4,805 nucleotides of DNA from a virus (Duplodnaviria; Heunggongvirae; Uroviricota; Caudoviricetes): the IMG/VR virus record IMGVR_UViG_3300014539_000096; one strand, written 5' to 3'. The notes beneath the pieces were generated by a model. The model ran no database searches. It was not told the DNA's origin and saw only the letters and a program-made list of their open reading frames with translations. Below are positions 1 through 4,698 of this stretch, piece after piece; position 1 is the stretch's first letter, and each line of letters begins with the position of its first letter. The position numbers were made by a program, and so were the translations under genes.

Positions 1-59
1 ACAGATCATTCACCAATGGTCCCCCTTCGTTTACATTAGCCACAATTGAATATGGGTAA

Positions 60-839
60 ATGACGATGAATTCATTCGAGCGAAGGAATAAGATCATCCA
101 ATTAGTGAATGAACAGGGAACCGTGCTTGTTCAGGATCTGGCGGGAGTATTTGCTGCCTCGGAAGCGACAATCCGTGCCGATTTGCGCTTTCTCGAACAA
201 AAAGGCGTGGTTACGCGCTTTCATGGCGGTGCGGCGAAAATAATGTCCGGTAATAGTGAAACCGAGACCCAGGAAGTCGGGTTTAAAGAGCGATTTCAGC
301 TCGCCAGCGCGCCGAAAAACAGAATAGCGCAGGCGGCAGTCAAAATGATCCATGAAGGGATGACCGTTATTCTCGACAGCGGAAGTACCACAATGCTTAT
401 CGCCGAAGGATTAATGACCGCCAAAAATATCACGGTGATTACCAACAGTCTCCCGGCAGCGTTTGCCCTTTCCGAAAATAAAGACATTACTCTGGTCGTC
501 TGTGGTGGCACGGTCCGCCATAAAACGCGCTCGATGCATGGTTCCATTGCCGAGCGTTCATTGCAGGATATTAATGCCGATTTAATGTTTGTCGGTGCTG
601 ATGGTATTGATGCGGTTAATGGTATTACGACCTTTAATGAAGGTTATTCGATTAGCGGTGCGATGGTCACCGCCGCTAATAAAGTGATTGCCGTTCTCGA
701 TTCATCGAAATTTAACCGTCGCGGTTTTAATCAGGTACTGCCAATCGAAAAAATTGACATTATTATTACCGATGATGCTGTATCAGAGGTGGATAAACTG
801 GCATTGCAGAAGACACGGGTAAAATTAATTACGGTGTAG
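60..839 (+). CDS. gatR: DeoR-family transcriptional repressor, galactitol-operon regulator GatR-like (intact, 259 aa)
   Basis: Full-length ORF. The N-terminal region fits a DeoR-type HTH domain and the C-terminal part (DSGSTT, VVCGG motifs) fits a DeoR sugar-phosphate-binding domain. The protein is recognised from memory as GatR. Convergent with yegS, as in the E. coli gat locus. An alternative start at ATG 66 (MNSFERR) is possible; neither start has a strong Shine-Dalgarno. Confidence 0.8.
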   Translation: MTMNSFERRNKIIQLVNEQGTVLVQDLAGVFAASEATIRADLRFLEQKGVVTRFHGGAAKIMSGNSETETQEVGFKERFQLASAPKNRIAQAAVKMIHEGMTVILDSGSTTMLIAEGLMTAKNITVITNSLPAAFALSENKDITLVVCGGTVRHKTRSMHGSIAERSLQDINADLMFVGADGIDAVNGITTFNEGYSISGAMVTAANKVIAVLDSSKFNRRGFNQVLPIEKIDIIITDDAVSEVDKLALQKTRVKLITV

Positions 840-850
840 TATTGTTCTGT

Positions 851-884
851 ATGCCGGATAAGGTATTTACACCGCATCCGGCAT
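851..884. repeat. REP-type imperfect palindrome in the convergent gatR/yegS gap
   Basis: ATGCCGGATAAGG...CCGCATCCGGCAT has perfect 9-bp outer arms (851-859 and 876-884) with a mismatched inner stem, the GCCGGATG/CATCCGGC signature typical of enterobacterial REP units. It lies between two convergent stop codons (839 and 921), so it may act as a bidirectional terminator or mRNA stabiliser. Confidence 0.6.
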
Positions 885-920
885 TTCGGATTCTCCCTGG
901 TTCAAGAGAGAATAGTTTGA

Positions 921-1820
921 TTAACGCAATAATGGACAATCTGGTGGTAATCGACAACGCAACGCCGCCGGAAGTATTTCAATATGAAAGTTTTGTCCGC
1001 TCAACGGTTCGCCATCAAGATTAAAAGTGATTTCGTGTGGGGCTTGTATATCAAACCACGACGAAGCGCCTTCGATAATATTCGGGTTATCTTCGTCAGA
1101 TTTTAAGGTTGATACGAGAGCCGGAAGAATTTCATCGCCGGTAAAAATGCGCAGTTGCAGCAAGCCATCGTTAATTAACGCGTTCGGACACAATTGCTGA
1201 CCGCCACCGGCCTGACGCCCGTTACCAATACCAATGACCAGGGCGTCACCTTGCCAGTGAAAGTTTTCACCGCGGATTTCACAACGGTCCGGTTGCAGAG
1301 TATCCATGCGCATTAAGCCATGAATGATGTAAGAGACGCCACCCAGCGCGGCTTTTAATTTTTCCGGCGTTTCTGTGGTAATACGCGTCCCAAATCCGCC
1401 TGTCGCCATATTAATAAAACAGGTTTGTTTGTTGACCTGCGCCATATCTATCGCAATGGCGTTACCGGCAATTGCCAGTTTCAGCGCCTTATCCAGTGCC
1501 TCAGGAATCCCTACACTGGTGGCAAAATCATTGGCGGTTCCTAATGGCAAAATTCCCAGCGCGGGTATTTCATCCCCCTCACACTGAATCAACGCCGTAG
1601 AAACTTCATTAATGGTGCCATCGCCACCACCGGCAATCACCGTTGCGACGCCCAACTTCCGGGCCTCCTCTACATATCGTGCGGCATCGCCTTTCTCCCA
1701 GGTGACCCGCACATGGATCGTCATTCCTTCCTCACGCAACAGCATAATTGCTTCGCGCAAGGGTAGATTGTCAGTACTTTTGCCATTAAGAATCAGTAAG
1801 CTGGCGGGAAATTCTGCCNN
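921..1820 (-). CDS. yegS: lipid kinase YegS (diacylglycerol-kinase catalytic-domain family)
   Basis: The track ORF 921-1760 begins at an internal Met. The frame stays open upstream (…[25 protein letters not shown]…) to codon 1818-1820, which reads NNG on this strand and is consistent with ATG. The GGDGT nucleotide-binding motif ([11 protein letters not shown]) is present. Length would be 299 aa if the start is at 1820. Confidence 0.85.
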
Positions 1821-1828
1821 NNNNNNNN
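1819..1828. other. run of 10 N (assembly gap or masked bases)
   Basis: Literal nnnnnnnnnn in the sequence. It overlaps the predicted yegS start codon and its ribosome-binding site. Confidence 1.
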
Positions 1829-2234
1829 TGATCGTATGTGCCTTTATGATTGGTCTGTAGATAGTGTAGAGCAGAAAACAAAAGGTGGAGTCAGAACAGG
1901 ATGAAAGTCGGAGGATAAAAAGTCAGTTCAAGTATGGAGGATTCAGTGGTTACCACCAGGAGCTTGCAATGGGGACAGCGAATATTAACGGTAACCACCG
2001 ATAAATTTCAAAAAAGAGCATATACCTAATATTCAACTAAACAGTGGCATCTTCAATATAATATATTAAAGCCCCCATGGAGTTACCCTGAAGGGCCTCA
2101 ATGTCCGTAATTCCTACTTATGTAGGAAATGTTGTACAGAACATTTATTATAATCCTATTCAATTATAATAATCATGCCGTTATTATATTTAAACACTAG
2201 AGAGTGTCGTTGGTATTTAATGGGGGAAGGTGAG
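1829..2234. promoter_or_regulatory. divergent yegS/yegR intergenic control region (AT-rich, several palindromes, -10-like hexamers)
   Basis: About 400 bp between two divergent start codons. TATAAT hexamers at 2149-2154 and 2165-2170; palindromes TTCCTAC-N4-GTAGGAA (2111-2128) and AAATGTT-N6-AACATTT (2127-2146); 11-bp palindrome GTGGTTACCAC (1947-1957). No transcription start sites can be assigned by eye. Confidence 0.35.
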
Positions 2235-2552
2235 ATGAAAAAGATAGCTGCTATATCATTAATTAGTATTTTTCTTATATCTGGTTGTGCTGTGCATAAT
2301 GATGAAACAAGTATCGGTAAATTTGGTCTTGCATATAAAAGTAATATTCAGCGTAAACTCGATAACCAATACTACACCGAAGCCGAAGCTTCTTTAGCCA
2401 GGGGTAGAATATCTGGTGCAGAAAATATAGTAAAAAATGATGCAGCCCATTTCTGTGTTACTCAGGGCAAAAAAATGCAGATAGTTGACCTGAAGACAGA
2501 AGGTGCAGGATTACATGGCGTCGCTCGTCTGACATTCAAATGTGGAGAGTGA
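2235..2552 (+). CDS. yegR: small predicted lipoprotein of unknown function (105 aa), YegR-like
   Basis: Start chosen at ATG 2235 (MKKIAAISLISIFLISGC...), preceded by GGGGGAAGG. The N-terminus is a signal peptide with a lipobox (ISG-C) and Ala at +2, suggesting Lol sorting to the outer membrane. Two further Cys residues are present. The 20-codon 5' extension in the track (from 2175) lacks a ribosome-binding site. The symbol is assigned from memory of the K-12 gene order next to yegS. Confidence 0.7.
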   Translation: MKKIAAISLISIFLISGCAVHNDETSIGKFGLAYKSNIQRKLDNQYYTEAEASLARGRISGAENIVKNDAAHFCVTQGKKMQIVDLKTEGAGLHGVARLTFKCGE

Positions 2553-2614
2553 GAATATTTTTTGGTAAGCATCAAACATGCGCGTTCTGGTTGTGCTTAG
2601 CCGGAACCTGTGCG

Positions 2615-2647
2615 AGCACGATGCCGTTACGTGAAAGGCATCGTGCT
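2615..2647. repeat. perfect 11-bp inverted repeat (stem-loop) downstream of yegR
   Basis: AGCACGATGCC (2615-2625), an 11-nt loop, then GGCATCGTGCT (2637-2647). No U-run follows on either strand, so it is not a canonical intrinsic terminator. Confidence 0.6.
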
Positions 2648-2710
2648 ATGAAGGGAGATTCTATCGATGTGGTCAATGGAAGACGGTGACCAGGGATAGG
2701 GCTTATGCAT

Positions 2711-2737
2711 AAAAAATAAGCCCGTGTAAGGGAGATT
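2711..2737. other. P2-type att core sequence (attL of the prophage)
   Basis: AAAAAATAAGCCCGTGTAAGGGAGATT matches my recollection of the 27-bp P2 attP/attB core. It sits 79 bp beyond the int stop codon, at the point where gene content changes from host to phage. Confidence 0.75.
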
Positions 2738-2816
2738 TAGGGTGTCACCAGTAGGGGCTTTCAACGGTACAATGCGGGTTTGAGCGGCATAAATTACCAC
2801 TGAAAGCCCTTAAACG

Positions 2817-3830
2817 TTACTCTACTGTGGACACTGTGTGGACACACTCGACCTCAGTACCACCTCTTAGCGGATTAAGAGAAATGGCGTCCTGAAGGTA
2901 CTCTGGCGCAAAATGAGCGTAAACCATAGTTTGCTCAATCCGCGTGTGACCTAGTATCCGTTGTAGCGTGATAATACTTCCTCCATTAATCATGAAATGA
3001 GTGGCAAAGCTGTGCCTTAGTGCATGTGTAGCTTGCCCCATTGGCAAATCCGGTTTTATTGCTTTCATTGTTCGTCTGAAGCGAGGGTAATCAGCATCAG
3101 GGAATAAAAAACCTCGTTTGTTATCCGCGATCATTTTGGCAACAGCCTCTGAGATCGGGACGGTGCGTGGTTTGTTTGTTTTCGTTTTAACAAACGTGAC
3201 GCGGTTATGGATGATATTTTCTGCTTTCAAACGAGCTGCTTCTCCCCAACGTGCTCCAGTACTCAGGCAAAGAATCGCAATCTTTTTGTTGTCGCCGTCA
3301 AGAGCAGCAAGCAGTAAGGCAATTTCTTCCTGCGTGAGATAGCCTGTGTCTGGTTTTTCCTCCTTAAGCCTTTTTGTCCCTCTGATAGGGTGCTCACCAA
3401 AGAATAACTCCGCTTCAATCAGGGCTGTAAACATGCCGCTAATACATGTTAAATCACGATTGATACTCGAAGGTTTAATACCCTGACTTCTTCGGGTAGC
3501 GCAGTACTGGCTGATAAGCGATTTCGTAATTTGAAATGCGCATGGGTCATTCGTTATTTTTGTGAAGATTTCAATTTTTCCAAGATTAGATTTCCCATGC
3601 TCTTCGTGTTTACCCTTTAAATCCCACCAGATCTGTGTCAGCTCCGACAGACGTCGCTTGTCTGTTGGTTTTGATAGCCATTCTTTATTGTGGTGGTTGT
3701 ACAACGTGTATTTCGCGAAAGCGACAGCTTCGCTTTTCTTATCAAACTTCCTACGGATGCGTTTTCCATTACGTCCAGTAGGGCGGATGTCCACTTCATA
3801 TCGACCATCATCGAGTTTTTTGATTGCCAT
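2817..3830 (-). CDS. int: phage P2-type tyrosine integrase (337 aa)
   Basis: Full-length ORF with GGAGGG 7 nt upstream of the ATG. C-terminal catalytic signature of tyrosine recombinases (ARWGEA... HALRHSFATH... LGHTRIEQTMVYAH). The sequence is recognised as P2 Int. Confidence 0.95.
   Translation of the reverse strand: MAIKKLDDGRYEVDIRPTGRNGKRIRRKFDKKSEAVAFAKYTLYNHHNKEWLSKPTDKRRLSELTQIWWDLKGKHEEHGKSNLGKIEIFTKITNDPCAFQITKSLISQYCATRRSQGIKPSSINRDLTCISGMFTALIEAELFFGEHPIRGTKRLKEEKPDTGYLTQEEIALLLAALDGDNKKIAILCLSTGARWGEAARLKAENIIHNRVTFVKTKTNKPRTVPISEAVAKMIADNKRGFLFPDADYPRFRRTMKAIKPDLPMGQATHALRHSFATHFMINGGSIITLQRILGHTRIEQTMVYAHFAPEYLQDAISLNPLRGGTEVECVHTVSTVE
2826..2844. promoter_or_regulatory. tandem direct repeat TGTGGACA-N3-TGTGGACA, candidate Int arm-type binding sites
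   Basis: Exact octamer at 2826-2833 and 2837-2844 with 11-bp periodicity, inside the last codons of int and about 90 bp from the att core. From memory, P2 Int arm sites are direct repeats of this type. Confidence 0.5.
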
Positions 3831-3945: not shown

Positions 3946-4245
3946 TTAACCAGTCTTTTGACCGGAGTGGGGCGACGTTGTTTCGTTTTGCCCAAAGTGT
4001 GCGAGAGCGGGCGCAATTTGCCCGGACTCAGGAGCGATCTGATTGGTCATGAACCATAAAGTGTATTTGGTGAATTGTGGGGTCTGCAGGATGTTCATCA
4101 TGACATCTGTTGGAGGTGTTGAACGACCACTTTCATAGTAACTCAGCGTGCCATACGGAACCCCTGTTAAATCAGCAAGTTGTTGTCTGCTCAAATACTC
4201 TGATTTTCGCATTAAGACTATCTTCTCGCTTATCGTGTTTGACAT
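3946..4245 (-). CDS. C: P2-type immunity repressor C (99 aa)
   Basis: Full-length ORF recognised as the P2 C repressor. It is transcribed leftward upstream of int, and its start codon overlaps the Pe -35 hexamer. Confidence 0.9.
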   Translation of the reverse strand: MSNTISEKIVLMRKSEYLSRQQLADLTGVPYGTLSYYESGRSTPPTDVMMNILQTPQFTKYTLWFMTNQIAPESGQIAPALAHFGQNETTSPHSGQKTG

Positions 4246-4422: not shown

Positions 4423-4698
4423 ATGAGTATTCGTATCGAAATTGGCGAACGTTATGTCGTTACCAGTGACAGCTTTCAGTTTATTCTCCACGAGAAAAAG
4501 AGAGCGGAAAGCGGTAAAAACGCCGGTCAGGAATGGCTGTCGGTGGTTGGTTATTACCCGAAATTAAGCCAGCTCGTTTCCGGCCTGATGCATCACGATA
4601 TTCTGACCGGAAGCGCAAAGTCTTTTGCTGATTTAAACGCGCAGGTTGAGCAACTCAGCAAGCGTTGTTCAGAGGCTTTTGGCTCATATGGCCGTTAA
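4423..4698 (+). CDS. cox: P2-type Cox protein (excision directionality factor and Pc repressor, 91 aa)
   Basis: Full-length ORF recognised as P2 Cox, with GGAGA 5 nt upstream of the ATG. It is the first gene of the rightward early operon. Confidence 0.9.
   Translation: MSIRIEIGERYVVTSDSFQFILHEKKRAESGKNAGQEWLSVVGYYPKLSQLVSGLMHHDILTGSAKSFADLNAQVEQLSKRCSEAFGSYGR

What the first reader, a model, noticed from the sequence alone, without database searches (positions are those of the whole stretch)
1990..2552. yegR and its upstream region are markedly AT-rich compared with neighbouring host genes
By eye, yegR (especially its 5' half) and the 200 bp upstream are much more AT-rich than gatR and yegS. 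The gene encodes a small Cys-containing lipoprotein of unknown function and sits directly beside a phage att site. This pattern suggests a horizontally acquired islet, possibly an old moron left by earlier occupants of the att site, and a likely target of H-NS silencing.
Basis: partly seen in the sequence, partly recalled or inferred. Interest (0 to 1): 0.35.

Follow-up and report, generated by a model that had tools for sequence, protein, structure and literature searches.

The report
yegR islet at the P2 att site
The AT-rich yegR gene is a real 789-bp foreign insertion that became fixed in E. coli at the spot where P2-type phages integrate, and it still carries a decayed phage attachment site, but the gene and its H-NS/EvgA regulation were already known.

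Summary
Window 1990-2552 has 36.1% GC against 47.9% for gatR-yegS, and yegR GC3 is 25.5% against 48-49%.

Comparison with 120 species-level loci shows the ancestral state: yegS directly abuts the cyaR sRNA terminator, which is the P2 att core. E. coli carries a 789-bp insertion there (window 1922-2710) that matches none of the other species' loci. Its left edge holds an in-register degenerate copy of the att core (18/27) followed by a P2 arm-like stretch. This looks like an attL relic.

yegR is present in at least 98% of 5,426 complete E. coli genomes, whether or not the att site is occupied (77% empty). It is therefore an old, fixed acquisition and does not belong to today's prophages.

The YegR family is tiny and patchy. 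Relatives sit on IS-flanked segments of conjugative plasmids. Others sit inside prophages between the lysis and terminase genes, which is a classic moron position.

The promoter carries a perfectly conserved EvgA box (2111-2128). Published work reports EvgA and H-NS binding at this promoter region.

The protein is an 88-residue mature lipoprotein with no detectable structural relative, and its function is unknown.

This is a new example of a known kind and is of moderate interest.

The parts
1829..1921 (-). Ancestral yegS leader/promoter-proximal DNA, not part of the islet. It is conserved in Escherichia sp. E1V33, Citrobacter, Salmonella and Enterobacter.
   Evidence: blastn of window 1829-2760 against 120 species loci gives matches to 1832-1921 (E1V33), 1854-1906 (C. 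amalonaticus), 1859-1906 (Salmonella) and 1863-1907 (Enterobacter).
1922..2710 (.). The inserted islet (789 bp, 39.5% GC), specific to E. coli among the loci sampled.
   Evidence: Homology with the yegS-cyaR junction of E1V33 breaks at about 1921 and resumes at 2711. No other species locus matches the interior. GC.
1917..1943 (+). Degenerate copy of the P2 att core at the left junction (attL-like relic).
   Evidence: 18/27 identical to the core at 2711-2737, the best non-self hit in the window. Only 8% of shuffles have any hit of at least 18/27 anywhere. It begins exactly where the ancestral core begins. 13/22 positions match outside the shared A-run, binomial P 0.0007-0.008. It is polymorphic among strains (10-19/27; all but one variant, which looks shifted by a 1-nt deletion, score 16-19), and some variants are closer to the core.
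1944..1975 (+). Stretch resembling the int-proximal (P') arm of the resident P2-like attL, at nearly the same distance from the core.
   Evidence: 17/24 identities at offsets 5-29 versus 6-30 from the core. The near-register segment score has P = 0.001 on shuffles and is tied top of 4,537 window positions. This is moderate evidence.
2038..2067 (+). Sigma-70-type promoter-like site TAAACA-18-TATATT, the one published for yegRZ.
   Evidence: Consensus scan. The same hexamers are listed for yegRZ in PMC3946193 Table 1.
2111..2128 (+). EvgA box TTCCTACTTATGTAGGAA, an 18-bp inverted repeat 107 nt upstream of the yegR start codon.
   Evidence: One mismatch to TTCYTACANNTGTARGAA, with 0 of 200 shuffles giving a match. 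In 70 kb of K-12 the same pattern at 2 mismatches or fewer hits only upstream of emrK/evgA, frc, yfdX, safA and ydeP. It is identical in 20/20 E. coli loci. EvgA binding to the yegR promoter is reported in PMC8147483.
2166..2194 (-). Promoter-like site TTTAAA-17-TATTAT, published for yegS. It now lies inside the islet.
   Evidence: PMC3946193 Table 1.
2235..2552 (+). yegR CDS (105 aa). It has a Shine-Dalgarno AAGGTGA at 2227-2233, a signal peptide M1-G17 and a lipobox Cys18, giving an 88-residue mature domain with conserved Cys74 and Cys103.
   Evidence: ORF list, RefSeq annotation, family alignments with invariant C18, C74 and C103, AF2 model beta-beta-beta-alpha-beta-beta.
2553..2710 (+). 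3' part of the islet (48.7% GC), strongly structured as RNA. It contains a 14-bp-stem hairpin at 2615-2647 and a 10-nt partial repeat of the att core (AAGGGAGATT, 2651-2660). No U-tract terminator is present.
   Evidence: Folding 2553-2740 gives MFE -67.6 kcal/mol against -48.0 +/- 3.8 for shuffles, z = -5.2. No Rfam match.
2711..2737 (+). Intact 27-nt P2 att core, which is the terminator stem-loop of the cyaR sRNA gene in unoccupied genomes. Here it is the attL core of the resident P2-like prophage.
   Evidence: Rfam CyaR_RyeE match spanning it in the empty site L001:3886-3971. It is conserved in nearly all species loci. Homology to unoccupied genomes ends at 2737. cyaR is listed as a P2 insertion site in PMC3032704.
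2817..3830 (-). Integrase of the resident P2-like prophage. It is context and not part of the islet.
   Evidence: Pfam Int_N and Phage_integrase; annotation in L003.

Best explanation
yegR and its AT-rich promoter belong to a 789-bp piece of foreign DNA (window 1922-2710). It was inserted in the E. coli lineage between yegS and the terminator of the cyaR sRNA gene, which is the attachment site of P2-type phages. The insertion then became fixed in the species.

Most probably it arrived through integrase-mediated integration of a P2-family element at that site. The left att copy and part of the adjoining phage arm decayed, all phage functions were lost, and one cargo (moron-type) gene was kept. 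The right att copy was preserved because it is the cyaR terminator, and it still serves as attB. In this window it is occupied by a present-day prophage that has nothing to do with yegR.

How it works, from published work and inference: the AT-rich promoter is bound by H-NS. Under acid stress the EvgS/EvgA system activates it through the 18-bp EvgA box at 2111-2128. The product is exported, lipidated at Cys18 and, lacking an Asp at +2, sorted to the outer membrane. There it forms a small beta-beta-beta-alpha-beta-beta domain, probably with a Cys74-Cys103 disulfide. It presumably acts as an envelope-protective accessory factor. Its biochemical function remains unknown.

Shown here: the composition, the insertion boundaries, presence in E. 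coli irrespective of att occupancy, the att-like relic, the EvgA box, and the mobile contexts of relatives. Inferred: delivery by a P2-family element, the silencing/counter-silencing logic, localisation, and role.
For: Composition.

Insertion relative to the ancestral yegS-cyaR adjacency: E1V33 alignment; 58/101 species loci with a gap of 160 nt or less; no interior match in other species.

Fixation independent of prophage: the yegR region is present with at least 80% cover in 5,328/5,426 genomes, whereas the empty att junction is intact in 4,203. One genome that lacks yegR lost it through an IS1-associated deletion.

attL relic.

cyaR terminator is the att core.

The site is a general insertion hotspot: cdtABC in E. 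albertii; inserts of more than 400 nt, up to about 4.4 kb, in Salmonella, Enterobacter, Raoultella and others.

The family is small and mobile. Only 66 of 1.84 billion representatives score E <= 1e-3. 89 plasmids carry ~48%-identical homologues; 65 of the 98 matching plasmid records are conjugative. One homologue is IS-flanked and the Enterobacter copy lies between IS3 elements. Homologues that are 77-82% identical sit at unrelated chromosomal loci. Members occur in Serratia, Pseudomonas aeruginosa and Neisseria. YegR-like genes lie inside prophages between Rz/endolysin/holin and terS/terL/portal, on the opposite strand, in a 35% GC dip. Mobile copies share the low GC3 of 27-31%.

Regulation: EvgA box; EvgA binding and H-NS site in the literature; co-induction with ydeO/yfdX.

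Protein: lipobox and conserved Cys; detected in OMV/exosome proteomics.
Against: No remnant of int, C or cox coding sequence is detectable inside the islet. No sequenced phage carries the E. coli islet DNA, except records that include host flank.

The att relic is only 18/27 identical, five of those positions being a shared A-run. The arm similarity is modest (P about 0.05 without the register constraint).

The prophages in which family members sit are lambdoid in layout, not P2-like, and the other mobile copies are IS- or plasmid-borne. Delivery by another route therefore cannot be excluded.

Only one close Escherichia relative with an empty site was sampled, and E. fergusonii and the other cryptic clades were not seen.

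No terminator-like site follows yegR.

The H-NS high-affinity motif is not enriched beyond chance in the window.

A yegR knockout had no phenotype in glucose-limited chemostats.
Confidence: 0.62

Rival explanations
1. The islet is foreign DNA but was not delivered by an att-specific integrase. An IS- or plasmid-borne yegR cassette was inserted, or recombined, next to the cyaR terminator by transposition or illegitimate recombination. The att-like sequence at the left edge is a coincidence.
For: Present-day mobile copies are flanked by IS3, IS630 and IS26 elements on plasmids and in Enterobacter. No phage gene remnant lies in the islet. DNA similarity with the closest homologues is limited to the CDS. 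The arm similarity is weak without the register constraint.
Against: The insertion point coincides to the base with the start of the att core of a known phage integration site. The 27-mer that follows is the best core-like sequence in the window and is in register. No IS ends or target-site duplications were seen at the borders.
Confidence: 0.22
2. yegR is an old vertically inherited gene of the yegS-cyaR region that was lost repeatedly in other enterobacteria. Its AT-richness reflects weak selection or functional constraints (promoter, signal peptide) and not foreign origin.
For: yegR is nearly universal and syntenic within E. coli, irrespective of prophage content. Promoters and signal-peptide regions are usually AT-rich.
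Against: 58 of 101 species loci across many genera have yegS abutting cyaR, with conserved junction DNA and no trace of the islet. A close Escherichia relative has the empty state. Homologues lie at unrelated loci and on mobile elements. GC3 of 25.5% affects the whole CDS and lies below every long ORF sampled.
Confidence: 0.04
3. yegR arose de novo in E. coli from AT-rich non-coding DNA beside the att site.
For: It is a short, taxonomically restricted gene. It has no hit in the local Pfam-A copy, no fold relative, and no knockout phenotype in one study.
Against: Clear full-length homologues with conserved lipobox and Cys pattern exist in Serratia, Pseudomonas, Neisseria, plasmids and prophages.
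Confidence: 0.01

Closest known systems
Phage morons such as lambda bor (an outer-membrane lipoprotein gene downstream of Rz, transcribed against the late operon)
   Same: YegR-family genes in prophage contigs L227-L231 occupy the same slot: between the Rz spanin and the terminase genes, on the opposite strand, in an AT-rich dip. They encode a lipoprotein of about 105 aa with a lipobox and a C-terminal Cys, like Bor. The E. coli copy has the same composition.
   Different: There is no demonstrable homology to Bor. hhalign probability falls from 78% to 4.4% once the signal peptide is removed, and a shuffled control scores higher. There is no Pfam Lambda_Bor hit. The E. coli copy is no longer inside any phage and is under host (EvgA) control.
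P2 remnant at locI of E. coli K-12 (ogrK-yegZ) and other prophage relics at the cyaR att site
   Same: Same integration site, the cyaR terminator core. Like ogrK/yegZ, the islet is DNA left at the site after decay of an integrated element. E. albertii keeps cdtABC plus an IS remnant at the same place.
   Different: The K-12 remnant is strain-specific and still recognisably P2 (D' and ogr). The yegR islet is species-wide, lies on the other side of the active att core, retains no phage gene, and has only a degenerate att copy.
EvgA regulon genes of E. coli (ydeP, safA-ydeO, yfdX, frc, emrKY, gadE)
   Same: An 18-bp inverted-repeat EvgA box lies about 110-250 nt upstream of the start codon. The genes have AT-rich, H-NS-associated promoters and are co-induced.
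   Different: yegR is a single small gene with no known role in acid resistance. It lies far from the evgAS and ydeP clusters.
Pfam PF27694 (YegR) / PHROG phrog_21109
   Same: The protein belongs to this family according to the precomputed Pfam annotation of all hits, and it matches phrog_21109 at E = 3e-71.
   Different: Both families have unknown function. The E. coli YegR sequences in phage collections come from prophage boundary overshoot, so the strong PHROG match may reflect the same artefact. Membership in a PHROG is therefore not evidence that the E. coli gene is phage-borne.

Membership tests
Integrase-delivered genomic islet at the 3' end of an RNA gene | Absent from close relatives whose flanks are intact and contiguous | tested here: met
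   Escherichia sp. E1V33 has gatD-gatR-yegS-cyaR-trhP with yegS leader DNA running straight into the att core. 58/101 species loci show the same adjacency.
Integrase-delivered genomic islet at the 3' end of an RNA gene | Flanked by direct repeats derived from the attachment site | tested here: inconclusive
   The right copy is intact (2711-2737). The left copy is 18/27, in register, P about 0.002 outside the A-run, and is followed by an arm-like stretch, P about 0.001. This is suggestive, but the copy is degenerate.
Integrase-delivered genomic islet at the 3' end of an RNA gene | Carries an integrase gene or its remnant | tested here: not met
   tblastn of Int, C and Cox against 1922-2710 gave nothing better than E = 1.6. 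The only integrase nearby belongs to the resident prophage beyond the intact core.
Integrase-delivered genomic islet at the 3' end of an RNA gene | Base composition and codon usage deviate from the host | tested here: met
   The islet is 39.5% GC, its core 2000-2400 is about 30-35%, and GC3 is 25.5% against 48-49% for the neighbours.
Phage moron | Located inside a phage genome between functional modules, as an independent transcription unit | tested here: inconclusive
   Met for family members in prophage contigs (L230 and L231 show lysis genes, then YegR-like, then terminase). Not met for the E. coli gene itself, which is carried by no phage except as host flank.
Phage moron | Own promoter and terminator | tested here: inconclusive
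   Promoter-like sites and the EvgA box are present. No terminator-like site lies downstream, only U-tract-less hairpins.
EvgA regulon | EvgA box (18-bp inverted repeat TTCYTACA-NN-TGTARGAA) in the promoter | tested here: met
   2111-2128 has 1 mismatch, with 0/200 shuffles matching. The consensus was recalled from memory and then validated on five known target promoters in K-12. The box is conserved in 20/20 loci.
EvgA regulon | EvgA binding and EvgA-dependent induction | not testable with these tools
   Literature only. A review states that EvgA binds the yegR promoter strongly (PMC8147483). yegR rises 11.9-fold together with ydeO, yfdX, oxc and emrK (PMC5811628).
H-NS-silenced xenogeneic DNA | AT-rich DNA bound by H-NS | not testable with these tools
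   AT-richness is shown here. H-NS binding to the yegR-yegS spacer comes from genomic SELEX (PMC3946193). The 10-nt H-NS motif occurs twice with one mismatch, which is not above chance.
H-NS-silenced xenogeneic DNA | De-repression in an hns mutant | not tested
   No data were found in the papers searched.
Bacterial lipoprotein, outer-membrane sorted | Signal peptide with lipobox [LVI][ASTVI][GAS]C and no Asp at +2 | tested here: met
   M1-KKIAAISLISIFLISG-C18-A19. C18 is invariant in all 23 family members aligned, and G17 is invariant in the 8-sequence alignment. YegR peptides are found in OMV-derived material (PMC9973271).
Bor/Iss lipoproteins (Pfam Lambda_Bor) | Sequence homology of the mature domain | tested here: not met
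   hhalign of the mature profile against mature Bor gives probability 4.4% and score 18.5, and 1 of 30 shuffles scores higher. No Pfam hit even at E <= 10.
Pfam PF27694 (YegR) | Match to the family model | tested here: inconclusive
   PF27694 is listed as the precomputed domain for every homologue. The local Pfam copy lacks the model, so hmmscan returned nothing.

The most novel reading that the evidence does not exclude
The YegR family is a previously unrecognised class of phage- and plasmid-borne outer-membrane lipoprotein morons. They would be functional analogues of Bor, Cor or TraT that alter the cell surface, for example by superinfection exclusion, serum resistance or envelope-stress protection. 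E. coli domesticated one copy from a P2-family element and rewired it to the acid-sensing EvgS/EvgA system.

No terminator follows yegR. EvgA-driven transcription could therefore read through the att site into whatever occupies it: ogrK in K-12, which is co-induced 6.6-fold, and antisense to int in this window. That would couple host acid signalling to prophage gene expression or stability.
Probability: 0.12. Interest if true: 0.6.

Novelty: new member of a known kind. Interest (0 to 1): 0.33.

Why it matters
This is a clean, datable example of how a phage attachment site in an sRNA terminator accumulates cargo. One gene was left behind, fixed in the whole species, placed under H-NS, and recruited by a host two-component system. 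It explains why an orphan lipoprotein gene of the EvgA regulon sits where it does.

It also shows the cyaR 3' end to be an insertion hotspot across Enterobacteriaceae (cdtABC in E. albertii, other inserts in Salmonella, Enterobacter and Raoultella).

Finally, it exposes a database artefact. yegR is filed in phage collections because prophage boundaries overshoot into host DNA, so its strong PHROG match is not evidence of phage carriage. The function of YegR is still open.

Tried and rejected
- **Homology to lambda Bor.** The first hhalign gave 78% probability, but this was driven by the signal peptide. Mature-only probability is 4.4%, and there is no Pfam hit.
- **Fold relatives.** Neither PDB nor BFVD gave a match at E <= 1e-3, and TM-scores were at most about 0.5. 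A profile search of PDB sequences found nothing.
- **Rfam.** Nothing in 1829-2816, even at E <= 1.
- **Remnants of int, C or cox in the islet.** None.
- **Phage DNA similar to the islet.** Only records that contain host flank. The 80 IMG/VR hits kept (the best of 107) have yegR within about 2.3 kb of a contig end, in most exactly at the end, consistent with boundary overshoot.
- **A second att relic at 2634-2660.** The 10/10 repeat AAGGGAGATT is real, but the 27-mer is only 15/27 and the arm comparison is not significant (P = 0.38). Left unresolved.
- **H-NS high-affinity motif.** Two one-mismatch sites, both inside the islet, but the count is not above chance.
- **An apparently divergent yegR allele (65%) in E. 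coli ECMA0423.** This is an indel-ridden assembly, not a real variant.
- **Primary EvgA literature.** Masuda and Church 2002 is not held, and no held paper containing the EvgA box consensus was found. The EvgA consensus was therefore validated empirically on known targets.
Full report
**What is in the window.** The 4,805 bases are E. coli chromosome. The layout is gatR (60-839, +), yegS (921 to about 1829, -), yegR (2235-2552, +), the 27-nt P2 att core (2711-2737), and then a P2-like int (2817-3830, -), C repressor (3946-4245, -) and cox (4423-4698, +). A run of ten N at 1819-1828 interrupts the yegS start and stands for a single base in complete genomes.

**The observation.** The finding interval 1990-2552 has 36.1% GC, against 47.9% for the host flank 1-1818 (chi-square P = 1e-6) and 45.9% for the prophage part. 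The lowest-GC 563-nt window of the whole sequence starts at 2001. The 235 nt upstream of yegR are 32.8% GC, the 5' half of the gene 32.7% and the 3' half 42.8%. GC3 of yegR is 25.5%, against 48-49% in gatR and yegS. In a 70-kb K-12 sample that itself contains AT-rich islands, only 3.4% of 563-nt windows are this low, and none of 50 long ORFs has so low a GC3. The mature protein has 88 residues, not 85.

**Distribution within E. coli.** The yegS-yegR-att stretch is found in 5,424 of 5,426 complete genomes, with at least 80% cover in 5,328. A 201-nt probe spanning the unoccupied yegR-cyaR junction is intact in 4,203 genomes, so about 1,220 have the site occupied or disrupted. yegR is therefore present whether or not a prophage occupies the site. 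One genome that lacks it lost it through an IS1-associated deletion that also removed part of a P2 prophage. The region is more diverged among strains than the neighbouring yegS. Only 55 genomes are at least 99% identical and 943 are below 95%, against 2,249 and 24 for an equally long yegS probe.

**The att site.** In an unoccupied genome Rfam finds CyaR (100.7 bits) on the minus strand, with its terminator stem-loop coinciding with the att core. Homology of unoccupied genomes to the window ends exactly at 2737. cyaR is listed as a P2 insertion site in E. coli W, K-12 (ogr-D') and B (PMC3032704).

**Between-species comparison.**
- A scan of one genome per species with a cyaR pattern returned 120 loci.
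- After orientation and tblastn with YegS, TrhP, GatR, GatD, YegR and Int, 58 of the 101 loci in which yegS is visible have the yegS start within 160 nt of the cyaR terminator. These include Klebsiella, Kosakonia, Citrobacter amalonaticus and sedlakii, several Enterobacter species, and Escherichia sp. E1V33. None encodes YegR except an E. coli entry.
- Alignment of E. coli with E1V33 shows homology through the yegS leader up to window 1921. E1V33 then runs directly into AAAAAATAAGCC..., whereas E. coli has 789 extra bases before the same core at 2711.
- The interior 1922-2710 matches no other species locus, while 1854-1906 and the core are conserved across genera.
- The site is an insertion hotspot. 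E. albertii has cdtABC and an IS remnant there, and inserts of more than 400 nt, up to 4.4 kb, occur in Salmonella, Enterobacter, Kluyvera, Leclercia, Raoultella and others.

**A relic of integration.**
- The 27-mer beginning exactly where the ancestral core begins (1917-1943) is 18/27 identical to the core. It is the best non-self hit on either strand, and a hit of at least 18/27 anywhere occurs in 8% of shuffles.
- Leaving out the shared A-run, 13 of 22 positions match (binomial P 0.0007-0.008).
- The following bases resemble the int-proximal arm of the resident attL at almost the same distance from the core (17/24). An unconstrained local alignment gives P = 0.05. Constrained to within 2 nt of register, P = 0.001, tied top of 4,537 window positions.
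- Among E. coli strains the relic varies (10-19/27; all but one variant, which looks shifted by a 1-nt deletion, score 16-19), and some variants carry the core base at polymorphic positions.
- No coding remnant of int, C or cox is left.
- I read this as a decayed attL. That reading is inference.

**The gene family.**
- The word-indexed search found almost only E. coli and Shigella sequences.
- An exhaustive profile search of 1.84 billion representatives found 66 proteins at E <= 1e-3, about a dozen of them full-length lipoproteins of roughly 105 aa.
- Named members come from Serratia, Klebsiella/Citrobacter/Kluyvera (a multispecies protein), the Pseudomonas aeruginosa group and Neisseria iguanae.
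- tblastn found homologues about 48% identical on 89 plasmids; 65 of the 98 matching plasmid records (nine of which carry E. coli-type yegR) are conjugative. In the example inspected the gene lies between IS3-like and IS630-like elements.
- In Enterobacter sp. BIDMC 29 the gene lies with an MFS transporter gene between IS3-family transposase genes.
- Homologues of 66-82% identity sit at unrelated chromosomal loci, with DNA similarity confined to the CDS.
- In IMG/VR prophage contigs a YegR-like gene lies between the holin/endolysin/Rz cassette and terS/terL/portal, on the opposite strand, in a 35% GC dip. This is the position that bor occupies in lambda.
- Mobile copies have GC3 of 27-31%, like the E. 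coli gene.
- By contrast, every occurrence of the E. coli gene itself in phage collections is host flank at the edge of a P2-like prophage record. This artefact may also underlie the strong phrog_21109 match.

**Regulation.**
- An 18-bp inverted repeat at 2111-2128 matches the EvgA box with one mismatch, and no shuffle gives a match.
- The consensus was recalled from memory, so I tested it. In 70 kb of K-12 around evgAS and ydeP, the hits with at most 2 mismatches lie only upstream of emrK/evgA, frc, yfdX, safA and ydeP.
- The box is identical in 20 of 20 E. coli loci that include the promoter.
- A review states that EvgA binds the yegR promoter strongly (PMC8147483).
- yegR rises 11.9-fold together with ydeO, yfdX, oxc and emrK, and with the downstream ogrK (6.6-fold), on glutathione exposure (PMC5811628).
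- The yegR-yegS spacer is marked as containing an H-NS site by genomic SELEX. The published promoter hexamers for yegRZ and yegS are at 2038-2067 (+) and 2194-2166 (-) (PMC3946193).
- The short H-NS motif is not enriched.

**The protein.** The lipobox LISG-C18 and Cys74 and Cys103 are conserved across the family. The AlphaFold model has mean pLDDT 74.7, with about 80-93 over most of the mature domain, and a beta-beta-beta-alpha-beta-beta topology. It has no significant match in PDB or BFVD. A first hint of relatedness to Bor disappeared when the signal peptides were removed. YegR peptides were reported from OMV-derived material (PMC9973271). A knockout had no phenotype in chemostats (PMC3708739), and one TraDIS screen found depletion under gentamicin (PMC10879529).

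**Verdict.** The AT-rich patch is real. It is the core of a 789-bp horizontally acquired insertion at the cyaR/P2 att site that is fixed in E. coli. It most probably is the last cargo gene of a long-decayed integrated element. It is now H-NS-associated and EvgA-controlled, and it encodes an outer-membrane lipoprotein of unknown function. The gene and its regulation are known. The origin story, as far as the held literature shows, has not been spelled out. Interest is moderate.

Noticed in passing
window 1819-1828: A run of ten N interrupts the yegS start codon region. In complete E. coli genomes the ten N correspond to a single base (A), so this is an assembly gap or mask. Coordinates to its right are shifted by +9 relative to native sequence.
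   Followed up: yes
L110 (Escherichia albertii NBRC 107761), about 1-3010 in the orientation with cyaR on the minus strand (the reverse complement of the stored locus): At the same cyaR att site E. albertii carries ORFs that I recognised as a cytolethal distending toxin operon (cdtA, cdtB, cdtC) plus an IS-like remnant, instead of yegR/yegS. The identification rests on the ORF N-termini, with no family search run. This would be another case of cargo left at this attachment site.
   Followed up: partly
L006-L125 (120 species loci), region between yegS and cyaR: The cyaR 3' end is an insertion hotspot across Enterobacterales. 19 of 101 loci have inserts of more than 400 nt, up to 4.4 kb (for example Salmonella diarizonae 2.9 kb at 37.7% GC, and Raoultella 4.4 kb). 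The contents were not analysed.
   Followed up: partly
window 2553-2740: The yegR 3' region folds into three strong hairpins (MFE -67.6 kcal/mol against -48 for shuffles, z = -5.2). It has no U-tract and no Rfam match. Its role (mRNA stabiliser, relic of att arms, or something else) is unknown.
   Followed up: partly
window 2651-2660 and 2728-2737: An exact 10-nt direct repeat AAGGGAGATT, the loop part of the cyaR terminator/att core, lies 77 nt apart. It may be a second partial att relic. The full 27-mer is only 15/27, and the repeat is decaying in K-12.
   Followed up: partly
L132:2494-2663 (phage record vB_EcoM-720R8); also hits H8 and H22-H26: Some E. coli lineages carry an extra AT-rich insertion of about 170 nt immediately after the yegR stop codon, preceded by a copy of TGAGAATA. 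Its nature is unknown.
   Followed up: no
L132, L141-L220; PHROG phrog_21109: yegR, and in one GenBank phage record also yegS and gatR, is included in phage and IMG/VR records because P2-like prophage boundaries overshoot into host DNA. The very strong phrog_21109 match may reflect the same artefact, though this was not checked.
   Followed up: yes
window 2826-2833 and 2837-2844: A tandem direct repeat TGTGGACA lies inside the 3' end of int. From memory it resembles the arm-type Int binding sites of P2 attP. This was not tested.
   Followed up: no
window 1854-1906: A purine-rich stretch upstream of yegS is conserved at 81-83% in Citrobacter, Salmonella and Enterobacter. It is presumably the ancestral yegS leader or promoter. 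In E. coli the published yegS promoter now lies 350 nt further away, inside the islet.
   Followed up: partly
L134 (E. coli 30EVA2): An IS1 element lies between yegS and a truncated P2 prophage (portal, terminase). yegR and the int end of the prophage have been deleted.
   Followed up: partly
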